The notes below the pieces were generated by a model, which did not search any database, was not told where the DNA came from, and saw only the letters and a program-made list of their open reading frames with translations. A program made the position numbers and the translations under genes. From IMG/VR virus record IMGVR_UViG_3300017569_000126, positions 4,865 through 68,864 of that record: 64,000 nt of DNA. One strand, given 5' to 3'. The stretch's first letter is position 1. Every line of letters begins with the position of its first letter. Positions 20,228-58,828 of the stretch are shown here, one piece after another. Source of the DNA: a virus (Duplodnaviria > Caudoviricetes).

Positions 20228-20710
20228 ATGCGTAGATGTGTTTATAGTGGAACTGTGTTTGAATATTATATTATGTCAAGGAAACAAGCGGAAGAATATT
20301 CTTGCTATGTTCATAATACAGATTCAATAGTTATTAGCATAACCGACCCACTACACAATGAATGCGGGGGAACTTTTGCGAAAATTCATCCTAACGAGGA
20401 AAACAAAATTTGCGAGGTGCTTCGTTTTATGTTTGACGATGTTGAAAAAAGTAACGCAGAGGAATCGCCCATTCCATACATTTTGATTAGTGAGCAGAAT
20501 GCGCAAGATATTTCAAACTTCGTTAAGAGATGGGCTGGTAAGGTTAAGCGCATTATTGTTCATTGTGAAGCTGGAATTAGTAGAAGTGCTGGATGTTGTG
20601 CTGCGATTATGAATTACTTTGAAAATACGGATGAACCAGTATTTAATGGACGTTTTTGTCCAAATATGACTGTTTATCGAACTGTTTTGAAGAAACTTTA
20701 CGGAGAGTAA
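20228..20710 (+). CDS. protein-tyrosine/dual-specificity phosphatase-like protein
   Basis: IIVHCEAGISRSAG, HCxxGxSRS active-site loop. Confidence 0.85.
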   Translation: MRRCVYSGTVFEYYIMSRKQAEEYSCYVHNTDSIVISITDPLHNECGGTFAKIHPNEENKICEVLRFMFDDVEKSNAEESPIPYILISEQNAQDISNFVKRWAGKVKRIIVHCEAGISRSAGCCAAIMNYFENTDEPVFNGRFCPNMTVYRTVLKKLYGE

Positions 20711-21090: not shown

Positions 21091-22188
21091 GTGAAATGTT
21101 TGAGAAAATTAGCAAGTATTAAAACAATTTCTGAAATAGTTCCTATTGCGAATAGAGATAGAATTGTCCTTGCGATTATTGACGGTTGGCAGGTAATTGT
21201 TAAGAAGGATGAATTTAATGTAGGAGATAAGTGCGTTTATTGTGAAATTGATTCTGTAATGCCTGACAAGCCAGAGTTTGAGTTTCTAAAGAAAAACGAC
21301 TTTAGGATTAAAACAATGAAAATGGCAGGAGTTATATCTCAGGGTATTTGTTTTCCTCTTTCTATCCTTCCCAAAGGAGAATACAATGTCGGGGACGATG
21401 TGACAAGCATCATAGGTGTAAAGCAATACGAAGAAACGATGGATATTGAAAAGCCAGAAAGAAAACCAACGGCTAAGAAGAAATATCCGAAATTTTTGAT
21501 GAGATTTGCATGGTTTAGAAAGCTTGTCCTTCCAAAGCCAGTGGATGATACGTTCCCGATACAATATATTAGCAAATCCGACCAAGAAAGAATCCAAAAT
21601 TTACCGAATATCGTAAAGGATAAAGGTAAATGGGATTGCACAGAAAAAGTAGATGGAAGTTCAGCAAGCTATCTTCTCGTGAGAAAGAAGAAAAAGAACT
21701 TTTTTGATAGTGAATCATACGAGTTTATCGTGTGTAGTCGCAACAAAAAGATTCCCATCAAAGACAATTCTTCTTATTGGAAGGTAGCAGAAAAATTTCA
21801 TATTAAGCAAGTTCTTGAATTTTTGATTCATGATGATGATTGGATAGCAATTCAAGGAGAAGTCCTTGGCCCCGGTATTCAGAAAAACAAATATAGATTT
21901 AAGGACTATGAATTTCGAGTGTTTGATATGTACAGACAGAAAATCGGCGGTAAAGTTGATTTCCGTACTATGAAAACGCAAGTAGAAGCTGCTGGTTTGA
22001 AAACAGTTCCTCTTGTGGAGACTGATTATGTTCTGCCAGACACAGTTGATGATGTTTTGAAATATGCTCATGCACGTTCCGTTGAAGCAAATATTTGGCG
22101 AGAAGGAATTGTTTTTAGAAAAGTCGGTGACGGAAACAAATCCTTCAAGGCGGTTGACCCTGAGTTTTTGTTGAAGTATGATGAGTGA
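21091..22188 (+). CDS. RNA ligase, DRB0094/Rnl2-like family
   Basis: RKLASI..I.....I.N.DRI...IDGW.VIVKKDEF.VGD.CVY.EIDS N-terminus; TEKVDGSS motif I, IQGE, EGIV and FK motifs. Confidence 0.85.
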   Translation: MKCLRKLASIKTISEIVPIANRDRIVLAIIDGWQVIVKKDEFNVGDKCVYCEIDSVMPDKPEFEFLKKNDFRIKTMKMAGVISQGICFPLSILPKGEYNVGDDVTSIIGVKQYEETMDIEKPERKPTAKKKYPKFLMRFAWFRKLVLPKPVDDTFPIQYISKSDQERIQNLPNIVKDKGKWDCTEKVDGSSASYLLVRKKKKNFFDSESYEFIVCSRNKKIPIKDNSSYWKVAEKFHIKQVLEFLIHDDDWIAIQGEVLGPGIQKNKYRFKDYEFRVFDMYRQKIGGKVDFRTMKTQVEAAGLKTVPLVETDYVLPDTVDDVLKYAHARSVEANIWREGIVFRKVGDGNKSFKAVDPEFLLKYDE

Positions 22189-22562: not shown

Positions 22563-24068
22563 GTGTCTAATATGGCAAATTTGTTTACCAACGCTGTTCG
22601 TGAAGCGACCGATGTTTCGCATACTACTAATGGCGCGTATGCGCACAAGTCTACTAAGAGTGACCTCTTAGATATGTTTTCCTGCCTTGGTGCATTGCGT
22701 TCTCGTATTGGCGATGTAGACGATATGTTCGCTCGTGCGTTTCGTGAGAATCCCGAACTCGCTACGAAGATGGCGTTTTATGGGCGTGATATTCGTGGTG
22801 GCTTGCAGGAACGCGCGGTTCCGCGAATGATTTTCAGGTGGTTGGCAATCCACGAGCCTGTTACTATGAAGGCCAACATGAAATACATTTCCGAGTATGG
22901 TCGTTACGACGATTTGTATGAGTTCGTTGGCACACCGTGCGAAAACTATATGTGGAACGAAGTTTTTATTCCTCAATTCAAGCAGGATATGAAGAATTAT
23001 CGTGCGGGAAAGCCGATTTCTTTGCTTGCAAAGTGGGCAAAGTCCACCAATACTTCTTCTAAGGAAAGCTGCCGTCTTGGGCGTTTAACTGCCGAAAAGC
23101 TTGGCATGACTACTAAGCAGTATCAAAAGACGCTTTCGCTGTTGCGCGAATACATTCGTGTACCTGAGCATCTCATGTCTGCTGATAGATGGGGCGAGAT
23201 TCCTTATGAGAATGTTCCGTCTAATGCTATGACTAAGTATTGTCATGCGTTTGGCCGTCATGATTATGAACGCTTCAATGAGTATATCAATCAGGTGAAG
23301 TCAGGAGAGAAGAAAATCAACGCTTCTACTTTGTTCCCCTATGATATTGTCCACAAATATTCTGTTGGAAGTTTGTGGTCTTGGAGAGTTTCTGGTGAAG
23401 GCAAGAACGATGTTCTTGAAGCTCAGTGGAAGGCTTTGCCAAATTATCTTGACGGGGAAAACAATGTTCTTGTGATGGCTGATACGTCTGGTTCGATGTA
23501 CGGAGAACCTATCGAAGTAGCGCTTTCTCTTGCGATTTATTTTGCGGAGCGCAATAAAGGAGATTGGCATAACCTGTTTATGACGTTTGAGAGCAATCCA
23601 CATTGGGTTGAACTCCGTGACGGTTCTCTTATTAACAATCTCGGTATTGCATACAAGGCCGATTGGGGTGGAAGCACTTCGTTGGATGCAGCTTTCAATC
23701 TCGTTCTCGATACCGCAATTAAGAACCATGTTGAAGCCAAGGATATGCCAAAAGCAATCGTTGTTATCACCGATATGGGAATCAATGTTTGTTGCCATGG
23801 AAATAATAAGACGATTGTTGATACAATGAAGTTGAAGTATGCTGCTCATGGATATGAGCTTCCCAATATCGTATTCTGGACTGTTGGACGTTTCAGCGGT
23901 GATGCCTACCAGAATCGTTACAACACTGAAAATGTTCAGTGCTTCTCTGGCGCTGCTGCTTCTACGTTCCGTTCTGTTATGGAAGCTATTGGCATGAACT
24001 CTTACGAGGCTATGCTAAAAACTCTGAATAACAAGCGCTACGAGCCGATTCATTATGTTGCGGCGTGA
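22563..24068 (+). CDS. DUF2828-type TROVE/Ro60-related protein with C-terminal vWA domain
   Basis: T.NGA..H.ST....LD.F, RDIRGG..ER, EYGRYDDL, SLLAKW, VPS.AM..Y..AF.RHD..RF, VMADTSGSM, DWGGST, VITDM, LP.IVFW motifs. Confidence 0.8.
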   Translation: MSNMANLFTNAVREATDVSHTTNGAYAHKSTKSDLLDMFSCLGALRSRIGDVDDMFARAFRENPELATKMAFYGRDIRGGLQERAVPRMIFRWLAIHEPVTMKANMKYISEYGRYDDLYEFVGTPCENYMWNEVFIPQFKQDMKNYRAGKPISLLAKWAKSTNTSSKESCRLGRLTAEKLGMTTKQYQKTLSLLREYIRVPEHLMSADRWGEIPYENVPSNAMTKYCHAFGRHDYERFNEYINQVKSGEKKINASTLFPYDIVHKYSVGSLWSWRVSGEGKNDVLEAQWKALPNYLDGENNVLVMADTSGSMYGEPIEVALSLAIYFAERNKGDWHNLFMTFESNPHWVELRDGSLINNLGIAYKADWGGSTSLDAAFNLVLDTAIKNHVEAKDMPKAIVVITDMGINVCCHGNNKTIVDTMKLKYAAHGYELPNIVFWTVGRFSGDAYQNRYNTENVQCFSGAAASTFRSVMEAIGMNSYEAMLKTLNNKRYEPIHYVAA

Positions 24069-24078
24069 TTTCAGCAGT

Positions 24079-24130
24079 CGATACTCTTACAGCAATCTCT
24101 AAGTTAAACAGAGAAAGCTTACGGGTATTG
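24079..24130 (+). ncRNA. CAGCAAT-motif structured RNA, copy 1
   Basis: stem GATACTC/GGGTATT, then TTACAGCAAT and inner hairpin CTCT-AAGTTAAAC-AGAG; 11 nt after the DUF2828 stop. Confidence 0.5.
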
Positions 24131-24174
24131 GTTTATATAAAGAGCGGGGAACCGCTCATACATATTGGTGGATT

Positions 24175-24546
24175 ATGAGCAGAAGAAAAAATTATCATGA
24201 TGTAAATTATATAGTTTGGAGTAAACCGAATCCTAAGACCAAGAAGCGCAAACGTGTTGTAATTGCTCATAGTACAGAAGCAACGCGCTTATTTTTAGAA
24301 ATAGTCTGCGATGAACATCCCAATATAACGGAAAACGAATTATTTGAATTACTAAAAGATAGGAGAAGATATATTCAAAACCCAGAAGCAATACAAGTTG
24401 TTCAGGCACACATTGACAAAGGATATGGAAGTTTTATAGCAGATTATAAGCCAGAACAAATAGAGTTTTTAGAGAAATATAATAAATTCGGAAATAGAAA
24501 ATATCGGTCTATTCTAAGAGAGTACAGAGAAAAGGAGAGCGTATAA
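24175..24546 (+). CDS. hypothetical protein
   Basis: clean basic ORF, tiling. Confidence 0.65.
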   Translation: MSRRKNYHDVNYIVWSKPNPKTKKRKRVVIAHSTEATRLFLEIVCDEHPNITENELFELLKDRRRYIQNPEAIQVVQAHIDKGYGSFIADYKPEQIEFLEKYNKFGNRKYRSILREYREKESV

Positions 24547-24547
24547 C

Positions 24548-24754
24548 ATGAAAAAGGTTCTTAGTTCAATAAACAGAGAAAGCGGAGTAGAACTATCGTT
24601 TGGCATTAACGAAACCAAACTTAACGGAGAGGAAGTTCAGCGATTTTATTTTAAGACTATCGCTGGTGATGGCAAAGAAACATACTTCGACTTTGAAAAT
24701 AAGGACGATGCTGCGAATTACATTGAAAATGCTCGTCGTATGTTAGAGGGTTGA
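24548..24754 (+). CDS. hypothetical protein
   Basis: AAGGAG RBS. Confidence 0.65.
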   Translation: MKKVLSSINRESGVELSFGINETKLNGEEVQRFYFKTIAGDGKETYFDFENKDDAANYIENARRMLEG

Positions 24755-24786
24755 GAGAAAACCCATAAAAAATATGTAAAACCCTC

Positions 24787-24815
24787 TTGACAAAAGGTGC
24801 ATTTTGTGGTACAAT
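24787..24815 (+). promoter_or_regulatory. promoter of the tRNA/ncRNA cluster
   Basis: TTGACA-17 bp-TACAAT, contains ACAAAA-N6-TTTTGT. Confidence 0.8.
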
Positions 24816-24910
24816 AATGTTGTCAAAGGGGAGCGGCTAAATCCTAAGACATATATTGAATCGACTATATTTATTTTCATTTAGATTTTCGCCGATTCTC
24901 TGTTGTTATA

Positions 24911-24973
24911 AAGACGCTTACAGCAATTAAAGAAACATCAGACAGTTAATCTGACAACGTTTTTTTGCGTCTT
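24911..24973 (+). ncRNA. CAGCAAT-motif structured RNA, copy 2
   Basis: stem AAGACGC/GCGTCTT, TTACAGCAAT, inner hairpin TCAGA-CAGTTAA-TCTGA. Confidence 0.6.
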
Positions 24974-24979
24974 GTGTTT

Positions 24980-25057
24980 GCGGAACACGCCAATATGGTA
25001 TCGGCGCACTCCTTATAAGGGTGAGATAGTAGCGTTCGAGTCGCACGTTCCGTACCA
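24980..25057 (+). tRNA. trnI: tRNA-Ile(TAT)
   Basis: acceptor GCGGAAC/GTTCCGT plus ACCA, anticodon arm CACTC-CTTATAA-GGGTG, T-loop TTCGAGT; T-stem needs a 1-nt bulge. Confidence 0.8.
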
Positions 25058-25269
25058 AGCTATCCCAAAATGTGAGGACAAACGGTAATTTGATTGTTAT
25101 GCCATTAGCAATTATAGTTCAAGAACAAATTGGAATAGCATACATACATGACATATTTGTGACTACAGTTCTCAATCTTTTTGCTTTATTGTAAAATTGA
25201 ATCATCATGTTTAAGGTTTTTTCATTCTCTACTGAATAATAGTTCGCAATCTCTGTTATGTTTTGATAT

Positions 25270-25496
25270 ATAGGGGTAGGGAAGTAGACAAACCCGACTG
25301 TCCAACATATGAGCCGTTCGATAATAACCGTCTTTCTTTATTTCTGGTTTTAAAAACCTTTTTTGGTAAAAGCTGTATGCTCTGCCTTTATCAGTAAACA
25401 AGTAGTTTGGATACTTATCGGCTCTGACAGCAATTTCTATATGGGCCAAAACAGTTGCTTAATGCTACGATAGTGCAAATCTATCCCCCTATGCCA
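25270..25496 (+). tRNA. degenerate tRNA-like gene (CCA anticodon-like) with ~142-nt insertion in the anticodon arm
   Basis: acceptor ATAGGGG/CCCCTAT plus GCCA, D-arm GGG/CCC, anticodon stem ACTGT/ACAGT, T-arm GATAG-TGCAAAT-CTATC; insert 25302-25443 contains GACAGCAAT. Confidence 0.55.
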
Positions 25497-25505
25497 ATTC
25501 CTAAA

Positions 25506-25681
25506 GCCGACTGTGTACGAGGGCTATAAGATGTCCTGTCGGCAGGGCGCATTCCTGCGAAATGGGAAGACTAACCGAATCTGCAAGCAAAGGTGACAGC
25601 AGGATAGACTGTCTTTGTCTGTACCGCACTGTTGTATGGTGTTGCGATGCCGCTCAACAGATGTGAGCAACGCAGACAAAG
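25506..25681 (+). ncRNA. unidentified multi-helix structured RNA
   Basis: helices GCCGAC/GTCGGC, GCAGG/CCTGC, GACAG/CTGTC, CTTTGTCTG/CAGACAAAG, GCTCA/TGAGC between two tRNA genes; no ORF. Confidence 0.45.
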
Positions 25682-25688
25682 TTTATAT

Positions 25689-25763
25689 GCGGGATTCGTA
25701 TAACGGCAAGTACGGCTGACTTCCAATCAGCAAATGACGGTTCGATTCCGTTATTCCGCTCCA
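25689..25763 (+). tRNA. trnG: tRNA-Gly(TCC)
   Basis: canonical cloverleaf: GCGGGAT/ATTCCGC, GCTGA-CTTCCAA-TCAGC, TTCGATT, encoded CCA. Confidence 0.95.
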
Positions 25764-25765
25764 CA

Positions 25766-25883
25766 CGAGAAATGGTGCAACGGATAGCACGCTGCTTGAC
25801 AAAAAGCTATCTTTTATTGGTAGATGCAGCAATCTATAATGTCTCAGGAGGCAGCGATAGTAGTTCGACTCTACTTTTCTCGT
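25766..25883 (+). tRNA. tRNA-like gene, CAG anticodon, short variable loop, 46-nt insertion
   Basis: CGAGAAA/TTTCTCG, D-stem GTGC/GCAC, anticodon stem CTGCT/GGCAG with loop CTCAGGA, T-arm AGTAG-TTCGACT-CTACT; insert 25797-25842. Confidence 0.7.
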
Positions 25884-25978
25884 CTATACATACTTCAAGT
25901 AATTTTCCTTGAAGTGGTTGCTATTACAATGCAACTTTTGCCGTCGTGTTGTGTGCTTAAACATAGCGGCTCCTTTCT

Positions 25979-26029
25979 GGGAGGACTGTAAAGACAGCTC
26001 GTTGCGGTCACACCGCGATTCTCCCACCA
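25979..26029 (+). ncRNA. 51-nt tRNA-like element lacking an anticodon arm, ends in ACCA
   Basis: GGGAGGA/TTCTCCC-ACCA stem enclosing CTGT-AAAG-ACAG and TTGCG-GTCACAC-CGCGA hairpins. Confidence 0.45.
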
Positions 26030-26030
26030 A

Positions 26031-26150
26031 GCCACACTTAGCTCAGTCGGTAGAGCAACGATAAAAATGCGTCGAATTGGCGCAATCAGCAATTTATAAT
26101 TGTTTAGGCTTGTAACCCGTGGGTCGGCGGTTCGAGTCCGTCAGTGTGGC
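26031..26150 (+). tRNA. trnT: tRNA-Thr(TGT) with 46-nt insertion in the anticodon stem
   Basis: TAGCTCAGTCGGTAGAGC D-arm, loop CTTGTAA, stem ACG+GG/CCCGT, T-arm GGCGG-TTCGAGT-CCGTC; insert 26061-26106. Confidence 0.8.
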
Positions 26151-26172
26151 CCTACATAATGAAGTATTATAA

Positions 26173-26228
26173 AGACGCTTACAGCAATTAAAAAGATGCA
26201 GCTATGGAAGCACATTCTAATAGCGTCT
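26173..26228 (+). ncRNA. CAGCAAT-motif structured RNA, copy 3
   Basis: stem AGACGCT/AGCGTCT; shares 26 identical nt (TTATAAAGACGCTTACAGCAATTAAA) with copy 2. Confidence 0.6.
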
Positions 26229-26232
26229 GTTT

Positions 26233-26305
26233 TGGGGTCATAGCATAACGGATAGTGCAAAAGACTTCTAATCTTTGAATCGAAGTTCGATTCTTCGTGG
26301 CCCTA
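26233..26305 (+). tRNA. trnR: tRNA-Arg(TCT)
   Basis: GGGGTCA/TGGCCCT, AAAGA-CTTCTAA-TCTTT, CGAAG-TTCGATT-CTTCG; no encoded CCA. Confidence 0.9.
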
Positions 26306-26367
26306 TTGAAAAGCTGGCAAAGGCCAGCTAATTTTTTAGGCAGAACTAAATAGTATTAAAATATAAA

Positions 26368-26910
26368 TTGGTGATTAAGATGAATACTATTGTTATAGCG
26401 GCTTTCCCATTATGCGGAAAAACTTGGTGCCATGACTATTCATGTACACTTGATAGAACGTCTTTGGATTTGGATAGTGAAAAATATCGTTGGAAAACTA
26501 TATATGTTAATTTTACACCACCTTCTAAAATAGAAGACCCTGATTTCCCAGAAAACTATATTCAGAAAATAAAAGACAATATCGGAAAATACGATTATAT
26601 TTTTATAAACACCGATGAAGGTGTGCTCGAAGCAATGGATAAAGAGAATATGGATTATGTTTTAGTATACCCAGAAAGAAAATTGATTGAAGAATGGGTC
26701 GGAAGATGTTGGATTAGAAAAAAGAAGCGCGGCGGCTTATTTGAGACAGAAGAACTTTATACAATGTGGAAAGCATGGATTGACTGCTTGGAGAAACGCT
26801 CTAAAGAGCATAAAACTTACAGATTAAAGGCAGGGCAACACTTGGCTAACGTCATTTTCAAAATTGAGAAAGACATGGAGGTAAAGCATGAACTTAATTC
26901 AGACAAATAA
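26368..26910 (+). CDS. P-loop NTPase / nucleotide-kinase-like protein
   Basis: VIAAFPLCGKT Walker A-like motif and DLDS. Confidence 0.7.
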   Translation: MVIKMNTIVIAAFPLCGKTWCHDYSCTLDRTSLDLDSEKYRWKTIYVNFTPPSKIEDPDFPENYIQKIKDNIGKYDYIFINTDEGVLEAMDKENMDYVLVYPERKLIEEWVGRCWIRKKKRGGLFETEELYTMWKAWIDCLEKRSKEHKTYRLKAGQHLANVIFKIEKDMEVKHELNSDK

Positions 26911-27565
26911 AAAGAAAGTCTACAACGTTCTTGATGTTTCAAAATATCAGGGCAATGTTGACTATGAAAAAGTAAAGGCGAGCGGTAATGTCGATTTTGT
27001 TATTGCGCGTTCCGTTTCAACTTCTAAAGGAGAAAAGTATATTGACCCAAAGTGGGAACGAAATTATTCAGAATGTAAGCGAATGGGGCTTCCTATTGGA
27101 ACATACTTTTATAGTGTTGCAAAAAACTGGGAGGAATTTAGCGGAGAGATTGATTTATGCTTTGAAGCGCTAAATTCTAAAACATTAGAATTGCCTCTCG
27201 CTATGGATATAGAATCCGAAAGTTGTGCTTCTATTGGGAAAGACGGATTGACAGCGATGATTTTGCAGGGCAAATCAAAGATAGAAGACAAGTGCTTTTA
27301 TCCGATGTTGTATTCTGGATTGAATTATTCACAGAATTACATCGACATGAATAAAATTGAAGAAGCTGGACTTGATTTTTGGCTTGCAGCATATCGCAAG
27401 ACAGAACCCGATTTGGAACATACGATGTGGCAATATACATCACAGGGAAGTGTTGAAGGTGTTTCTGGGGATTGCGATTTGAGTTATTGCTATACAAATT
27501 ATCCGCAAATCGTAAGATGGATGACCGCTGTGTATCAAATCAAAAGAATATTTAATGGATTATGA
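26888..27565 (+). CDS. GH25 muramidase (lysozyme), no cell-wall-binding domain
   Basis: LDVSKYQG.VD..KVK, G.YFY, MDIE, W.A.Y, WQYTS.G.V.GV.G.CDL motifs. Confidence 0.9.
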   Translation: MNLIQTNKKKVYNVLDVSKYQGNVDYEKVKASGNVDFVIARSVSTSKGEKYIDPKWERNYSECKRMGLPIGTYFYSVAKNWEEFSGEIDLCFEALNSKTLELPLAMDIESESCASIGKDGLTAMILQGKSKIEDKCFYPMLYSGLNYSQNYIDMNKIEEAGLDFWLAAYRKTEPDLEHTMWQYTSQGSVEGVSGDCDLSYCYTNYPQIVRWMTAVYQIKRIFNGL

Positions 27566-28248
27566 TTATGAATGAGAACGCTTTTCCAAATGAGAATGTT
27601 TTACTAAGTGATGAAATAAAAGGCGAGTTTATAAATCTTTGGATAGCAAATGATTGCTTTCCTTATGTTTTAGGAAATAACGTATTGTTTGATACGGAAT
27701 TATTTCTTCGAGTCATGGAACTAACCGTCAAAAAGGTCAAAGAGGAAGACGAAAGAAATAACTCGTTTCATATACGATATTCTTGGACTTATAGGGGAGA
27801 GATTATTTTTATTTGCGATTCAAAGACAGCGATTCCGAATTATGACTTGCCCACATTGACTGCGTTTGTAACTGTTATATTCAATAGAGTTCTAAGAGAT
27901 GAAGTTACGAGTTATTTTGCTATGTATACAGAGAACTCTGATAAGACACAAAGGTATACAGATTATCAGAATGCAATAAATAGCGATTTGTATTTTGTAG
28001 GAACTGCGGATATTTTAAGTCTAAATGCAATTATAGCAAGAATGGTAAGCGAAGAAAAAGTGTTGTACAATGACACATATAAGTGGCTTGAACAAACGCA
28101 TGATAAAGAATATATAAACAATGTTGAAATCAAAAAACCACAGGTACTTTATGGGACTGGATTTGCTTGTAATTATTTTGCCCACCATGAGGAAAAAAAG
28201 TTTTGGAGTTCTGAATTTGAAAAGTATCTGAAAGGAAGTTTACAATGA
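27562..28248 (+). CDS. hypothetical protein
   Basis: ORF, tiling. Confidence 0.7.
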   Translation: MIMNENAFPNENVLLSDEIKGEFINLWIANDCFPYVLGNNVLFDTELFLRVMELTVKKVKEEDERNNSFHIRYSWTYRGEIIFICDSKTAIPNYDLPTLTAFVTVIFNRVLRDEVTSYFAMYTENSDKTQRYTDYQNAINSDLYFVGTADILSLNAIIARMVSEEKVLYNDTYKWLEQTHDKEYINNVEIKKPQVLYGTGFACNYFAHHEEKKFWSSEFEKYLKGSLQ

Positions 28249-28790
28249 GATTTTTCGCGGAGTTCGATGGAGATAAAAAGGTTTATGAGAAAGCCATAAT
28301 AAGGGATATGCCAATAATAAACAATGCGATAGCGAATACGACGAAGGAGTTGGCGAGAGAAAACCGTTTTGTATGGGGTATGGGTACAAGTATATATGTG
28401 TATTCTAATAACCCACATTTTGGGTGCTATCGCTATGACGATTTGCTAAACTACACAAGTCGTGTTACATTGTGGTTTAATAAGTGGTTGAATTTTCTAT
28501 CACGCAAGAACGATATTTGCGATTGTGTCATAAGAAATGTTGGCTTTACTTTTAGAGCGGATATGATGGACGAATCAAAAGATATTCCTTTTGAAAGAAG
28601 GGCAAAATTTATAATCGCATCACAGGCTTCTGAGAGCGCCTTTTATAAGGAAAACAAACCTTTATTTAGAACAGATTACCCTAAATATCAATCCTCAACC
28701 GTGAATGGGAATTTGTATTTGGATGGAAAAATGTGTATGTGCCCAATTTTTGATGAACAAAGTCTCAAAAATTTTATGGAACCCGCTTGA
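28245..28790 (+). CDS. hypothetical protein
   Basis: ORF, tiling. Confidence 0.7.
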   Translation: MRFFAEFDGDKKVYEKAIIRDMPIINNAIANTTKELARENRFVWGMGTSIYVYSNNPHFGCYRYDDLLNYTSRVTLWFNKWLNFLSRKNDICDCVIRNVGFTFRADMMDESKDIPFERRAKFIIASQASESAFYKENKPLFRTDYPKYQSSTVNGNLYLDGKMCMCPIFDEQSLKNFMEPA

Positions 28791-28869
28791 CATTTTGGGA
28801 GACAAATGGTATACTATAAACACGATAAGCATTTTAATAATATAAAAGTATAATTTAAGGAGTAAAGTT

Positions 28870-29253
28870 ATGAAAATCGTTAGTTATCCCGACCACCGTT
28901 GTACGGTAGCTATTGGCAGCTTTAGCACAAAGTCTTTTTGCGGTGATACCGATTTGATGTATTCTCGAAAGATTAAGGCTTCGACTGTTTGTCATCCTGA
29001 TGACACTTACGATGAAAAGCTTGGCGTTGAAATTGCAAAGCGCAAGTATGCAATTAAGGAACGCAGAGTAAAGCGTGATTACCATGAGTCTCAGATGAGG
29101 GAATATATGGCAAAAGCAGAGCGTTATAAGCATCTCGTTGAAGAAGAAAAGAAGATTATTTCCAATCATGATGTAAAGATTGCTGAAATGCAGAGCAACT
29201 TGGAAAAATTTATTGGTGACAGCCTCTGCTGTTCTGACCCAAGCCAGAGCTAA
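28870..29253 (+). CDS. hypothetical phage protein
   Basis: AAGGAG RBS; C.P.D.YDEK.G.EIA pattern; promoter near 28788. Confidence 0.7.
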   Translation: MKIVSYPDHRCTVAIGSFSTKSFCGDTDLMYSRKIKASTVCHPDDTYDEKLGVEIAKRKYAIKERRVKRDYHESQMREYMAKAERYKHLVEEEKKIISNHDVKIAEMQSNLEKFIGDSLCCSDPSQS

Positions 29254-58503: not shown

Positions 58504-58828
58504 AAGAAATCACCTATTTCAATTCCTTAAAACAGCCCGTACCGTTCAGTACAATAAATTAAAGTAAAGTACAATATCTACGCATTTTTCTAACGGCGTG
58601 ATTGTACCAAGTATGCAACGAGAATATGCGTAAAAATCTCGCCATGCACGCGCATCAATGACCTTTCTTGGCAATAAATAACTATATCGGTCTGATGGCG
58701 GCGTCCACTTGACAATATCGAGCTATAAATTTACGAACTTAATCGGGGGACATTCACTCCTTCCGAAGTACCACGGACTTTGAGAGAATCAAAGTGTCAG
58801 GGCATATTTGTATAGGAAAATACATATT

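What the first reader, a model, noticed from the sequence alone, without database searches (positions are those of the whole stretch)
25766..26150. Two tRNA genes each interrupted by a related 46-nt insert in the anticodon arm
Seen: removing 26061-26106 restores a canonical tRNA-Thr(TGT) anticodon stem (ACGGG/CCCGT). Removing 25797-25842 restores a cloverleaf with loop CTCAGGA. Both inserts are exactly 46 nt and share AAAAA-hairpin-AT(G)CAGCAAT(T/C)TATAAT(T)GT. Established: bacterial tRNA introns are normally group I/II self-splicing elements hundreds of nt long, and these inserts lack such cores. Inference: either a new enzyme-spliced mini-intron class (the phage RNA ligase is 3.6 kb upstream) or permanent tRNA/Y-RNA-like hybrids. 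A CAG anticodon on a short-variable-arm C1:G72 body is also atypical for Leu.
Basis: partly seen in the sequence, partly recalled or inferred. Interest (0 to 1): 0.85.

Follow-up and report, generated by a model that had tools for sequence, protein, structure and literature searches.

The report
tRNA-shaped RNAs with Ro60-type handle
Two tRNA-shaped genes in this gut phage carry a conserved 46-base extra arm that recurs beside a Ro60-like protein gene in many phages, so they are most likely permanent partner RNAs of that protein, not tRNAs with a new kind of intron.

Summary
At 25766-25883 and 26032-26150 lie two complete tRNA bodies, each with exactly 46 extra bases in the 5' strand of the anticodon arm. 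Cutting these out gives ARAGORN tRNA-Leu(CAG) and tRNA-Thr(UGU).

The inserts are neither chance nor decay. Each holds a hairpin, about 3 nt, then CAGCAAU. The same module sits in the anticodon arm of over 100 distinct tRNA-like genes. It also occurs free-standing, as a closing helix followed by 3-5 nt and CAGCAA.

The module lies next to DUF2828/vWA genes in uncultured gut and rumen phages and Bacillota prophages. Free-standing copies lie near the gene in a Felix-O1-like coliphage, Listeria P100 and Bacillus Tsamsa. The window's DUF2828 protein (22563-24068) folds like Ro60.

Within lineages CAGCAA never varies. The anticodon-like loop does vary and is often non-canonical. RNA1 has a CAG anticodon on a short-variable-arm body with U73, so it cannot be a Leu tRNA.

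Best reading (0.6): stable, unspliced tRNA mimics that dock the Ro60-like ring, an unpermuted analogue of YrlA Y RNAs. Enzymatic splicing is not excluded (about 0.12). Binding and non-splicing are inferred, not shown.

This scan has noted the same pairing on other genomes. I found it neither in Rfam nor in the papers searched.

The parts
25766..25883 (+). RNA1: tRNA-shaped RNA with a 46-nt arm in the anticodon arm. It has C1:G72, U73, a 4-nt variable region and no encoded CCA.
   Evidence: it is a row of alignment A4, whose six helices all covary
25797..25842 (+). RNA1 insert between positions 31 and 32. It holds an A-run, the hairpin CTATC/GGTAG (25807-25811 / 25819-25823), the spacer ATG, CAGCAAT (25827-25833) and a linker.
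   Evidence: module model R1 gives 12.6 bits, E 0.68, so it is a divergent member
25843..25849 (+). RNA1 anticodon-like loop CTCAGGA, closed by CTGCT (25792-25796) and GGCAG (25850-25854)
26032..26150 (+). RNA2: tRNA-shaped RNA with a 46-nt arm interrupting the 5' strand of the anticodon stem between positions 29 and 30
26061..26106 (+). RNA2 insert. It holds an A-run, the hairpin TGCGTC/GGCGCA (26068-26073 / 26079-26084), a 2-3 nt spacer (AT, or AAT if the outermost T-A pair is left open), CAGCAAT (26087-26093) and a linker.
   Evidence: best R1 hit of the whole window at 21.2 bits, E 0.004
26109..26115 (+). RNA2 anticodon-like loop CTTGTAA, on the split stem ACG+GG / CCCGT
22563..24068 (+). 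DUF2828 + DUF7788/vWA protein of 501 aa, the Ro60-like ring protein proposed as partner of the module
   Evidence: Pfam; PHROG 850 'RNA-binding protein'; AF2 model with pLDDT 75; the top 13 Foldseek PDB hits are all Ro60/TROVE
21091..22188 (+). RNA ligase of the DRB0094/DraRnl type with an N-terminal OB domain
24787..24815 (+). sigma-70-type promoter TTGACA-17-TACAAT with a TG extension, at the start of the ncRNA operon
26312..26339 (+). intrinsic terminator ending the ncRNA operon
25689..25763 (+). ordinary tRNA-Gly(UCC). It ends 2 nt before RNA1, so RNA1 lies in a tRNA precursor.
26233..26306 (+). ordinary tRNA-Arg(UCU), the last gene of the operon
24079..24130 (+). free-standing module copy 1: GATACTC-tta-CAGCAAT ... 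GGGTATT, starting 11 nt after the DUF2828 stop codon
24911..24973 (+). free-standing module copy 2: AAGACGC-tta-CAGCAAT ... GCGTCTT, just 5' of a weak tRNA-like gene
26173..26228 (+). free-standing module copy 3: AGACGCT-ta-CAGCAAT ... AGCGTCT, ending 4 nt before tRNA-Arg

Best explanation
RNA1 and RNA2 are stable, unspliced, tRNA-shaped non-coding RNAs. They are transcribed with the phage's tRNAs from one promoter. Because acceptor, D and T arms are intact, host RNase P, RNase Z and CCA-adding enzyme would trim them like tRNAs.

The 46 extra bases form a side arm on the 5' strand of the anticodon stem: a hairpin, then about 3 nt, then single-stranded CAGCAAU. This arm is the docking handle for the Ro60-like DUF2828/vWA ring protein encoded 1.7 kb upstream.

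The resulting particle would be a phage analogue of Ro60 with YrlA Y RNA. The protein is held on an RNA that otherwise looks like a tRNA, including an anticodon-like stem-loop. That shape could bring tRNA-handling factors to the ring, such as the adjacent RNA ligase, or host anticodon nucleases acting on the RNA as bait.

Shown by computation:
- the tRNA architecture and its covariation;
- the conserved module;
- its linkage to DUF2828 genes;
- the Ro60 fold of the protein.

Inferred: that the protein binds the module, that the arm is not excised, and the downstream role in tRNA repair or counter-defence.
For: 1. The module is a family trait. ARAGORN with introns allowed found 153 such genes (73 unique) in loci fetched only by a 15-mer. 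It found 105 more, all on the gene strand, in 65 of 160 loci fetched only by DUF2828 protein similarity.

2. Hairpin + 3 nt + CAGCAA occurs 92 times on the gene strand of those 160 loci. It occurs 6 times on the other strand, and the median is 5 for permuted hexamers. Of 125 strict copies, 94 lie within 1 kb upstream of the gene.

3. The hairpin covaries at all 7 pairs while C-A-G-C-A is invariant. In 26 full-length members all six helices covary, including both halves of the split anticodon stem.

4. The same module exists free-standing, so it is not defined by exons. There are three free-standing copies in the window, and copies beside the DUF2828 gene and tRNA clusters in a Felix-O1-like coliphage, Listeria P100 and Bacillus Tsamsa. 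All three near-complete records that lacked the gene in the fetched flank have it elsewhere.

5. The protein folds like Ro60: the top 13 PDB hits are all Ro60/TROVE, over the full length.

6. Decoding is unlikely:
- Loops of 6, 8 and 9 nt occur, as do A33 or C33 and AGGGG-type loops.
- Six of 7 loop positions vary within one lineage, while CAGCAA never does.
- RNA1 has CAG on a class I body with U73. By the established identity rules this is not a LeuRS substrate.

7. There is precedent. Ro60 genes in bacteria and phages have adjacent tRNA-mimicking Y RNAs (PMC4201824, PMC12135203).
Against: - No RNA or binding data exist. The link to DUF2828 rests on co-location only.
- The family was collected with ARAGORN's intron mode, and the hairpin rows were chosen for having a hairpin. 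Both choices inflate how regular the family looks.
- RNA1 matches the module model only weakly (E 0.68).
- In RNA1, RNA2 and many relatives, exact excision restores a 5-bp stem and a 7-nt loop with U33 and R37. A splicing model predicts exactly this.
- RNA ligases of two unrelated families recur near DUF2828 genes (the window, L174, and RtcB in P100). This fits splicing as well as it fits repair.
- The AF2 model has only moderate confidence (pLDDT 75).
Confidence: 0.6

Rival explanations
1. Enzyme-spliced mini-introns. The module is the recognition element for a protein machine: the Ro60-like ring, an unknown endonuclease, and the phage or host RNA ligase. This machine excises the 46 nt and produces decoding tRNA-Thr(UGU) and a CAG-reading tRNA.
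For: Exact excision restores canonical anticodon arms in RNA1, RNA2 and many relatives. The total stem length of 5 bp is kept although the insertion point slides. RNA ligases lie near DUF2828 genes in the window, in L174 and in Listeria P100, where the ligase is annotated 'tRNA splicing ligase'.
Against: - No EndA-type endonuclease or RtcB is found in the record, which is only about 60% complete.
- No ligase was found by tblastn with the window's ligase in the fetched flanks of the 15-mer loci, nor by PF09414 in the records of L037, L056 and L033.
- The same module occurs in RNAs with no exons.
- Several lineages have 6-, 8- or 9-nt or AGGGG-type loops that could not decode after excision.
- The anticodon-like loop is among the most variable parts within lineages.
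- RNA1 lacks Leu identity.
- Some members (T3, T13) have an intact anticodon hairpin, with the module lying outside it.
Confidence: 0.12
2. Permanent tRNA-like RNAs whose CAGCAA module works without the DUF2828 protein. It could be a processing or stability signal for a host RNase, a site for another conserved neighbour, or a sequence that base-pairs with an invariant cellular RNA.
For: An invariant single-stranded hexamer could be a pairing or cleavage site. Free-standing copies sit 4-6 nt before tRNA genes in the window. Binding to DUF2828 is untested.
Against: The module tracks the DUF2828 gene across phages of Bacillota and Enterobacteria. The other neighbours differ between these phages. 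No conserved complementary partner sequence was seen.
Confidence: 0.15
3. Working tRNAs that decode with the extra arm in place, much as class II tRNAs carry a long variable arm.
For: Acceptor, D and T arms and an anticodon arm with a 5-bp stem and 7-nt loop are all maintained by covariation.
Against: A 46-nt arm on the anticodon stem should clash with the ribosomal A and P sites; this is inference from known ribosome-tRNA structures. RNA1's identity elements fit no synthetase for CAG. Relatives have non-canonical loops.
Confidence: 0.05
4. Dead tRNA genes disrupted by a small mobile insertion, or an assembly artefact.
For: Standard tRNA finders do not call them.
Against: An independent contig carries identical copies amid about 1.4% divergence. 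Over 100 distinct homologues keep every helix by compensatory change. There are no target-site duplications or terminal inverted repeats; the insertion point varies, yet the module's orientation is always the same.
Confidence: 0.02

Closest known systems
YrlA-type Y RNAs with Ro60/Rsr in bacteria and phages (Rfam RF02553; Chen et al. 2014, PMC4201824; Thermus phage phiLo Yrl1/Yrl2, PMC12135203)
   Same: Small RNAs are encoded next to a ring-plus-vWA protein gene, often in several copies. The RNA mimics a tRNA with D and T arms and an acceptor-like stem. The protein-binding part emerges where the anticodon arm would be. RNA ligase genes are often in the neighbourhood, as in the rsr-yrlBA-rtcBA operon.
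   Different: - Here the tRNA is not circularly permuted. The free 5' and 3' ends are at a normal acceptor stem, and an anticodon-like stem-loop is kept.
- The conserved element is hairpin + 3 nt + CAGCAA, not the bulged Ro-binding helix or CGAA motif.
- RF02553 scores only 23-31 bits against a threshold of 69, and those hits span the junctions between neighbouring tRNAs.
- The protein belongs to Pfam DUF2828, not TROVE, and its similarity to Ro60 shows only in the fold.
Archaeal and eukaryal tRNA introns removed by the EndA/Sen endonuclease and RtcB or Trl1 ligase
   Same: Short inserts of tens of nt lie in or near the anticodon arm. Archaeal inserts also occur at non-canonical positions such as 29/30. 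Excision restores the cloverleaf.
   Different: The context is bacterial phage. No EndA homologue was found. I saw no bulge-helix-bulge arrangement at the junctions, though this was only an inspection by eye. The insert has a conserved sequence core that also occurs outside tRNAs.
Bacterial and phage tRNA genes with group I introns
   Same: The interruption is in the anticodon region of tRNA genes of bacteria and phages.
   Different: Group I introns are over 200 nt long with a catalytic core. No such core is detected here, and 46 nt cannot hold one.
tmRNA and other tRNA-like domains fused to a functional RNA module
   Same: A tRNA body provides processing and protein recruitment for an attached module.
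   Different: There is no mRNA-like reading frame and no tag peptide. ARAGORN's tRNA/tmRNA scan of the window lists only the two tRNAs, and Rfam tmRNA gives only 8.4 bits.

Membership tests
Canonical decoding tRNA (Rfam RF00005) | Cloverleaf with a continuous 5-bp anticodon stem and a 7-nt loop, detected by standard tools | tested here: not met
   Default ARAGORN and Rfam (gathering threshold, and E up to 10) do not call RNA1 or RNA2. They are called only after the 46 nt are deleted. Some relatives do reach 30-50 bits with RF00005, with the insert treated as an insertion.
Canonical decoding tRNA (Rfam RF00005) | Identity elements consistent with the anticodon | tested here: not met
   RNA1 has anticodon CAG but a 4-nt variable region, U73 and C1:G72. 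Bacterial tRNA-Leu is class II with A73, by established knowledge. RNA2 (UGU) is compatible with Thr apart from C1:G72.
Group I intron in tRNA | Catalytic core (P3-P9), more than 200 nt | tested here: not met
   The inserts are 46 nt. No intron family is found in 24500-26500 at E up to 10.
Endonuclease/ligase-spliced tRNA intron (archaeal type) | EndA-family splicing endonuclease available | tested here: not met
   PF01974 is absent from the 68.9-kb record at E up to 1. The record is about 60% complete and the host genome is unknown, so a host enzyme cannot be excluded.
Endonuclease/ligase-spliced tRNA intron (archaeal type) | Removal of the insert in vivo | not testable with these tools
   No transcript data are available.
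YrlA / Y RNA (RF02553, RF00019) | Match to the family covariance model | tested here: not met
   There is no hit in the window's ncRNA region at E up to 10. In seven related loci RF02553 scores 23-31 bits against a threshold of 69, spanning junctions of adjacent tRNAs.
YrlA / Y RNA (RF02553, RF00019) | Encoded next to a Ro60-type protein gene | tested here: met
   The window's genes lie 1.7-2 kb downstream of the Ro60-like gene. In 160 protein-fetched loci, 94 of 125 strict modules lie within 1 kb upstream of the gene, on the same strand.
YrlA / Y RNA (RF02553, RF00019) | Bound by the Ro60-type protein | not testable with these tools
   This needs EMSA or RIP experiments.
Ro60/TROVE protein (for the proposed partner, 22563-24068) | Ring of helical repeats plus a vWA domain with a MIDAS motif | tested here: met
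   The AF2 model (pLDDT 75, pTM 0.71) has its top 13 PDB matches all to Ro60/TROVE over the full length, with TM 0.40-0.59. The DxSGSM motif is invariant in 9 homologues.
Ro60/TROVE protein (for the proposed partner, 22563-24068) | Sequence match to the Pfam TROVE domain or to Ro60 chains | tested here: not met
   Pfam gives DUF2828, DUF7788 and VWA_2 only. A profile search of PDB sequences finds no Ro60.

The most novel reading that the evidence does not exclude
The 46-nt arms are true protein-dependent tRNA introns of bacteria. The Ro60-like ring recognises the hairpin-CAGCAA handle, an unknown nuclease excises the arm, and the phage DraRnl-type ligase (RtcB in other phages) reseals the anticodon stem. 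The phage would then make extra decoding tRNAs only when its own machinery is expressed. This would be the first enzyme-catalysed tRNA splicing system in the bacterial world.
Probability: 0.1. Interest if true: 0.95.

Novelty: new variant of a known kind. Interest (0 to 1): 0.72.

Why it matters
Ro60 with its Y RNAs is a conserved RNA-surveillance particle whose bacterial role is still poorly understood. If this reading holds, a second, sequence-divergent branch of Ro60-like proteins (DUF2828) has its own partner RNAs with a simple invariant handle. That branch is present in about 700 sequenced phages, including relatives of Felix O1, Listeria P100, KVP40 and mycobacteriophages.

In gut Bacillota phages the handle has been grafted into otherwise complete tRNAs. 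This gives a natural, unpermuted counterpart of YrlA. It also gives a defined motif for binding and structural studies, and an explanation for tRNA genes that look 'intron-containing' when phage genomes are annotated.

Because the genes sit with tRNA clusters and RNA ligases, the system bears on how phages protect or repair tRNAs under attack by host nucleases. Cultured systems exist for testing it: coliphages, P100, Bacillus phages, and a Roseburia hominis isolate contig (L238) that carries a tRNA-embedded copy.

Tried and rejected
- Default tRNA and Rfam scans do not see RNA1 or RNA2.
- blastn of the region against GenBank phages found no relative.
- A sequence-only search of the PDB did not find Ro60; only the fold search did.
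- My automatic parser for the split anticodon stem failed on 77 of 130 sequences, including ones that parse by hand. I therefore gave no family-wide percentage of canonical loops.
- A closing helix inside the insert (AUAAA/UUUAU in RNA2, GACA/UGUC in RNA1, AAAG/CUUU in T5) is not general, for example in U5, so I do not claim it.
- Single-sequence folding does not recover the cloverleaf of RNA1. In RNA2 it pairs CAGCAAU into a local hairpin that other members cannot form.
- I considered TTGACA and TATAAT inside the RNA1 insert as a promoter and rejected it, because the spacing is 33 nt.
- I rejected a DNA-level motif because of the strand bias (92 against 6) and the compensatory changes in the hairpin.
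- An EndA homologue and RtcB were sought in the record and not found.
- Seven literature searches (DUF2828; Ro60/TROVE with phage tRNA-like RNAs; phage tRNA introns) found no description of this RNA family. One review, PMC10870794, was not held.
- The 15-mer scan mixed true elements with chance matches in coding DNA, and these had to be separated by context.
Full report
**1. The observation**

The stretch 24755-26367 has no long ORF. A strong sigma-70-type promoter (24787-24815, TTGACA-17-TACAAT with a TG extension) and an intrinsic terminator (26312-26329 plus a T run) bound it. ARAGORN and Rfam call two ordinary tRNAs in it: Gly(UCC) at 25689-25763 and Arg(UCU) at 26233-26306.

Between them lie two further tRNA bodies, RNA1 (25766-25883) and RNA2 (26032-26150). 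Both have a 7-bp acceptor stem, a D arm with A14 and G18G19, and a T arm with the GTTCGA loop. Standard scans miss both.

These segments are 25797-25842 and 26061-26106. The parse is not unique. With introns allowed, ARAGORN reads the same genes as Val(gac) with a 48-nt intron and Ile(tat) with a 31-nt intron.

Both inserts share an A-run, a hairpin, a 2-3 nt spacer and CAGCAAT. That heptamer occurs six times in 24090-26188, against about four expected per strand in the whole 68.9-kb record. One independent IMG/VR contig (L001, the same contig as L092) carries both genes without a single difference in 237 nt. Neighbouring features differ by about 1.4%. This argues against an assembly error and against decay.

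**2. The insert is a family trait**

Two relatives share only 51% protein identity in the neighbouring 501-aa gene. Each carries a tRNA-like gene with the same plan as RNA2:
- ACG, then an A-rich linker;
- the hairpin CCGTC/GGCGG;
- the spacer TAA, then CAGCAAG and a linker;
- a small anticodon-like hairpin and CGT.

About half of the hits were chance matches in coding DNA. The rest showed a closing helix GACGC...GCGTC around a variable interior.

In those loci ARAGORN with introns allowed found 153 'interrupted tRNAs' of 105-140 nt (73 unique sequences). Often 3-4 stand in tandem. About 55 of the unique sequences carry a hairpin, then 2-3 nt, then CAGCAA in the anticodon arm.

**3. Linkage to one protein family, tested in both directions**

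From RNA to protein: 49 of the 108 loci held at that point (105 from the 15-mer scan plus L001-L003) encode a homologue of the window's 501-aa protein, at 33-51% identity (99.8% in L001, the same phage). Five records had a structured element but no such gene in the fetched flank. The three that are at least 82% complete encode the gene elsewhere in the record.

From protein to RNA: I aligned nine homologues (A1) and fetched 160 loci by protein similarity alone. Eighty came from IMG/VR. Eighty came from genomes, mostly MAGs of Lachnospiraceae, Erysipelotrichaceae and other Bacillota. In these loci:
- A perfect hairpin of at least 6 bp ending exactly 3 nt before CAGCAA occurs 92 times on the gene strand and 6 times on the other strand. 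The median for 59 permuted hexamers is 5.
- ARAGORN finds 105 interrupted tRNAs with CAGCA inside, in 65 loci, all on the gene strand.
- Of 125 strict modules, 94 lie within 1 kb upstream of the gene.

**4. Structure of the RNAs**

In 55 non-redundant modules, all seven hairpin pairs show changes on both sides. There are 101 such cells, against 29 +/- 6 in shuffles. Sliding the partner columns drops pairing to 37-45%. C-A-G-C-A is invariant. These rows were chosen for having a hairpin, so the percentage paired is by construction; the variety of pair types is not.

A covariance model was built without this phage and its 51% relative. Its best hit in the 64-kb window is the RNA2 insert (21.2 bits, E 0.004). 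The RNA1 insert scores 12.6 bits (E 0.68). Six of the top nine hits lie in 24076-26189. RNA2 is therefore a clear member. RNA1 is a divergent one, placed by its context and plan.

I aligned 26 full-length members, including RNA1 and RNA2. All six helices covary: acceptor, D, T, the module hairpin and both halves of the split anticodon stem. The outer pairs of that stem show CG/GC/AU and UA/GC/CG. The inner pairs show CG/GC and CG/AU/UA/GC.

The RNAs are thus cloverleaves with a fifth arm set into the 5' strand of the anticodon stem. The insertion point slides between lineages:
- 26/27 in T3 and T13, where the anticodon hairpin is intact;
- 28/29 or 29/30 in most members, and in RNA2;
- 31/32 in RNA1 and its relatives.

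**5. The module also exists without a tRNA**

The window has three free-standing copies, at 24079-24130, 24911-24973 and 26173-26228. In each a closing helix is followed by TTA or TA, then CAGCAAT, then an inner hairpin. The topology is a circular permutation of the embedded form: the helix strand that precedes CAGCAA is the 5' strand of a closing stem rather than the 3' strand of a capped hairpin.

The protein family occurs in 702 GenBank phage records. These include Felix-O1-like coliphages and Salmonella phages, mycobacteriophages (annotated 'Ro-like RNA binding protein'), Listeria P100-like, Staphylococcus, Enterococcus and Campylobacter phages, Vibrio KVP40 and Bacillus Tsamsa-like phages.

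In E. coli typing phage 1, Listeria P100 and Bacillus Tsamsa the gene lies beside or among the phage's tRNA genes. Unannotated gaps there hold three or four free-standing elements with covarying closing helices: GACC/GGUC, GGAAUC/GAUUCC, GAGAGC/GCUCUC and GACAC/GUGUC.

**6. The protein**

Pfam sees DUF2828, DUF7788 and a weak VWA_2. PHROG 850 is labelled 'RNA-binding protein'. A profile search of PDB sequences finds no Ro60.

An AlphaFold2 model was built from the nine-sequence alignment (pLDDT 75, pTM 0.71). Its 13 best PDB matches are Ro60/TROVE structures only, aligned over the full length with TM 0.40-0.59. They include Thermus phage phiLo Ro60, Xenopus and human Ro60, and Deinococcus Rsr. 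Plain vWA domains follow. The MIDAS motif DxSGSM is invariant.

**7. Intron or permanent arm?**

For splicing:
- Exact excision restores a 5-bp stem and a 7-nt loop with U33 and R37 in RNA1, RNA2 and many relatives.
- RNA ligases recur near the gene: a DraRnl-type ligase in the window, PF09414 600 nt downstream of the gene in L174, and RtcB in P100.

Against splicing:
- The same module occurs in RNAs that have no exons.
- Several lineages could not decode after excision. Loops of 8 nt (AUUAUCAA), 6 nt (AAUCCA, CUUAAA) and 9 nt occur. So do A33 or C33, and a whole lineage has AGGGG in place of an anticodon loop.
- Within the GAGTGAGG lineage (14 sequences), six of seven loop positions vary. CAGCAA and the inner hairpin stem never do. 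For a decoding tRNA the reverse would be expected.
- RNA1 pairs a CAG anticodon with a 4-nt variable region, U73 and C1:G72. No bacterial LeuRS substrate looks like this, by the established identity rules.
- No EndA-type endonuclease or RtcB is in the record, which is about 60% complete. No ligase was found near the gene in the large L037 family, nor by PF09414 in the records of L056 and L033.

The known precedent also points to a permanent arm. Ro60 genes of bacteria and phages are flanked by Y RNAs, and YrlA is a tRNA mimic whose Ro-binding stem leaves the body where the anticodon arm would be (PMC4201824, PMC12135203).

**8. Most likely mechanism**

RNA1 and RNA2 are cut out of the tRNA precursor like tRNAs. 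RNA1 starts 2 nt after tRNA-Gly. They keep their 46-nt arm and use hairpin + 3 nt + CAGCAAU as the handle for the Ro60-like ring.

The tRNA body and the anticodon-like loop would then present the particle to tRNA-handling factors. A role in tRNA repair or in countering anticodon nucleases is suggested only by the neighbourhood: ligases of two unrelated families, a phosphatase-like gene at 20228-20710, and tRNA clusters.

Binding, non-splicing and the downstream role are all inferences. I put 0.6 on this reading and 0.12 on splicing. I put 0.15 on a functional module with a partner other than DUF2828, 0.05 on decoding with the arm in place, and 0.02 on dead genes.

**9. Comparison and novelty**

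The system works like Ro60 with YrlA, but it is not a member of the YrlA family. RF02553 scores 23-31 bits against a threshold of 69, and those hits span neighbouring tRNAs. The RNA is not permuted, the conserved motif differs, and the protein is recognisable as Ro60-like only by its fold. It is not a group I intron, and the archaeal splicing system finds no support.

Seven literature searches found no description of these RNAs. After I had formed this reading, a look-up showed that this scan has noted the same module-protein pairing in at least 11 other genomes. Those are unchecked AI notes and not independent evidence, but they mean that this window is a further instance and not the first sighting. 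I rate it a new variant of a known kind.

**10. Limits**

- There are no expression or binding data.
- The family was ascertained with ARAGORN's intron mode, which favours spliceable members.
- I selected the rows of A2 and A4.
- Model R1 is short, and its E-values are rough.
- Only one independent contig covers this phage.
- The host genome is unknown.

Noticed in passing
window 25884-26031 (+): The 148-nt spacer between RNA1 and RNA2 folds far better than shuffled versions (-49.6 kcal/mol, z = -4.3, 0 of 200 shuffles as good). It differs by 1 nt in the independent contig. It may be a further structured RNA of the operon.
   Followed up: partly
window 24980-25057 (+): A weak tRNA-like gene with anticodon loop CTTATAA (Ile UAU), G1-U72, a poor T stem and an encoded CCA. 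ARAGORN calls it only at a lowered threshold. It lies 6 nt after free-standing CAGCAAT element 2.
   Followed up: partly
window 25396-25435 (+), CAGCAAT at 25428: A sixth CAGCAAT copy lies in an AT-rich stretch (25060-25690) that also holds a 75-aa minus-strand ORF. The module model gives 12.8 bits. Its context was not resolved.
   Followed up: no
window 58514-58782 (-): Rfam RT-2 RNA at 68.9 bits, above the gathering score.
   Followed up: no
L038, L041, L054, L056 (2668-2799), L064, L089: A second kind of interrupted tRNA occurs in large phages that also carry DUF2828. These genes end in CCA. They have a 47-56-nt insert right after the anticodon, containing a hairpin with loop GGCAGCA or GGCAGTA (for example GTAGG-GGCAGCA-CCTAC). 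RNA1 can also be drawn with such a hairpin (TAGAT-GCAGCA-ATCTA).
   Followed up: no
L269 5768-6480; L270 3663-3900; L271 2258, 3478, 3867: Free-standing helix + 3-5 nt + CAGCAA elements lie in unannotated gaps next to the DUF2828 gene and tRNA clusters of E. coli typing phage 1 (Felixounavirus), Listeria P100 and Bacillus phage Tsamsa. All three are cultured phages in which the RNP idea could be tested.
   Followed up: partly
L002 10548-10634; L003 9543-9629: In the 51% relatives, tRNA-Arg(UCU) is 87 nt long, with an extra arm in the variable region and a G1-U72 pair. This is unusual for Arg.
   Followed up: no
record of L007 (handle G010), 27344-28870: The DUF2828 homologue there matches over its full length but contains one in-frame TAA. 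This could be a broken gene, a sequencing error or recoding.
   Followed up: no
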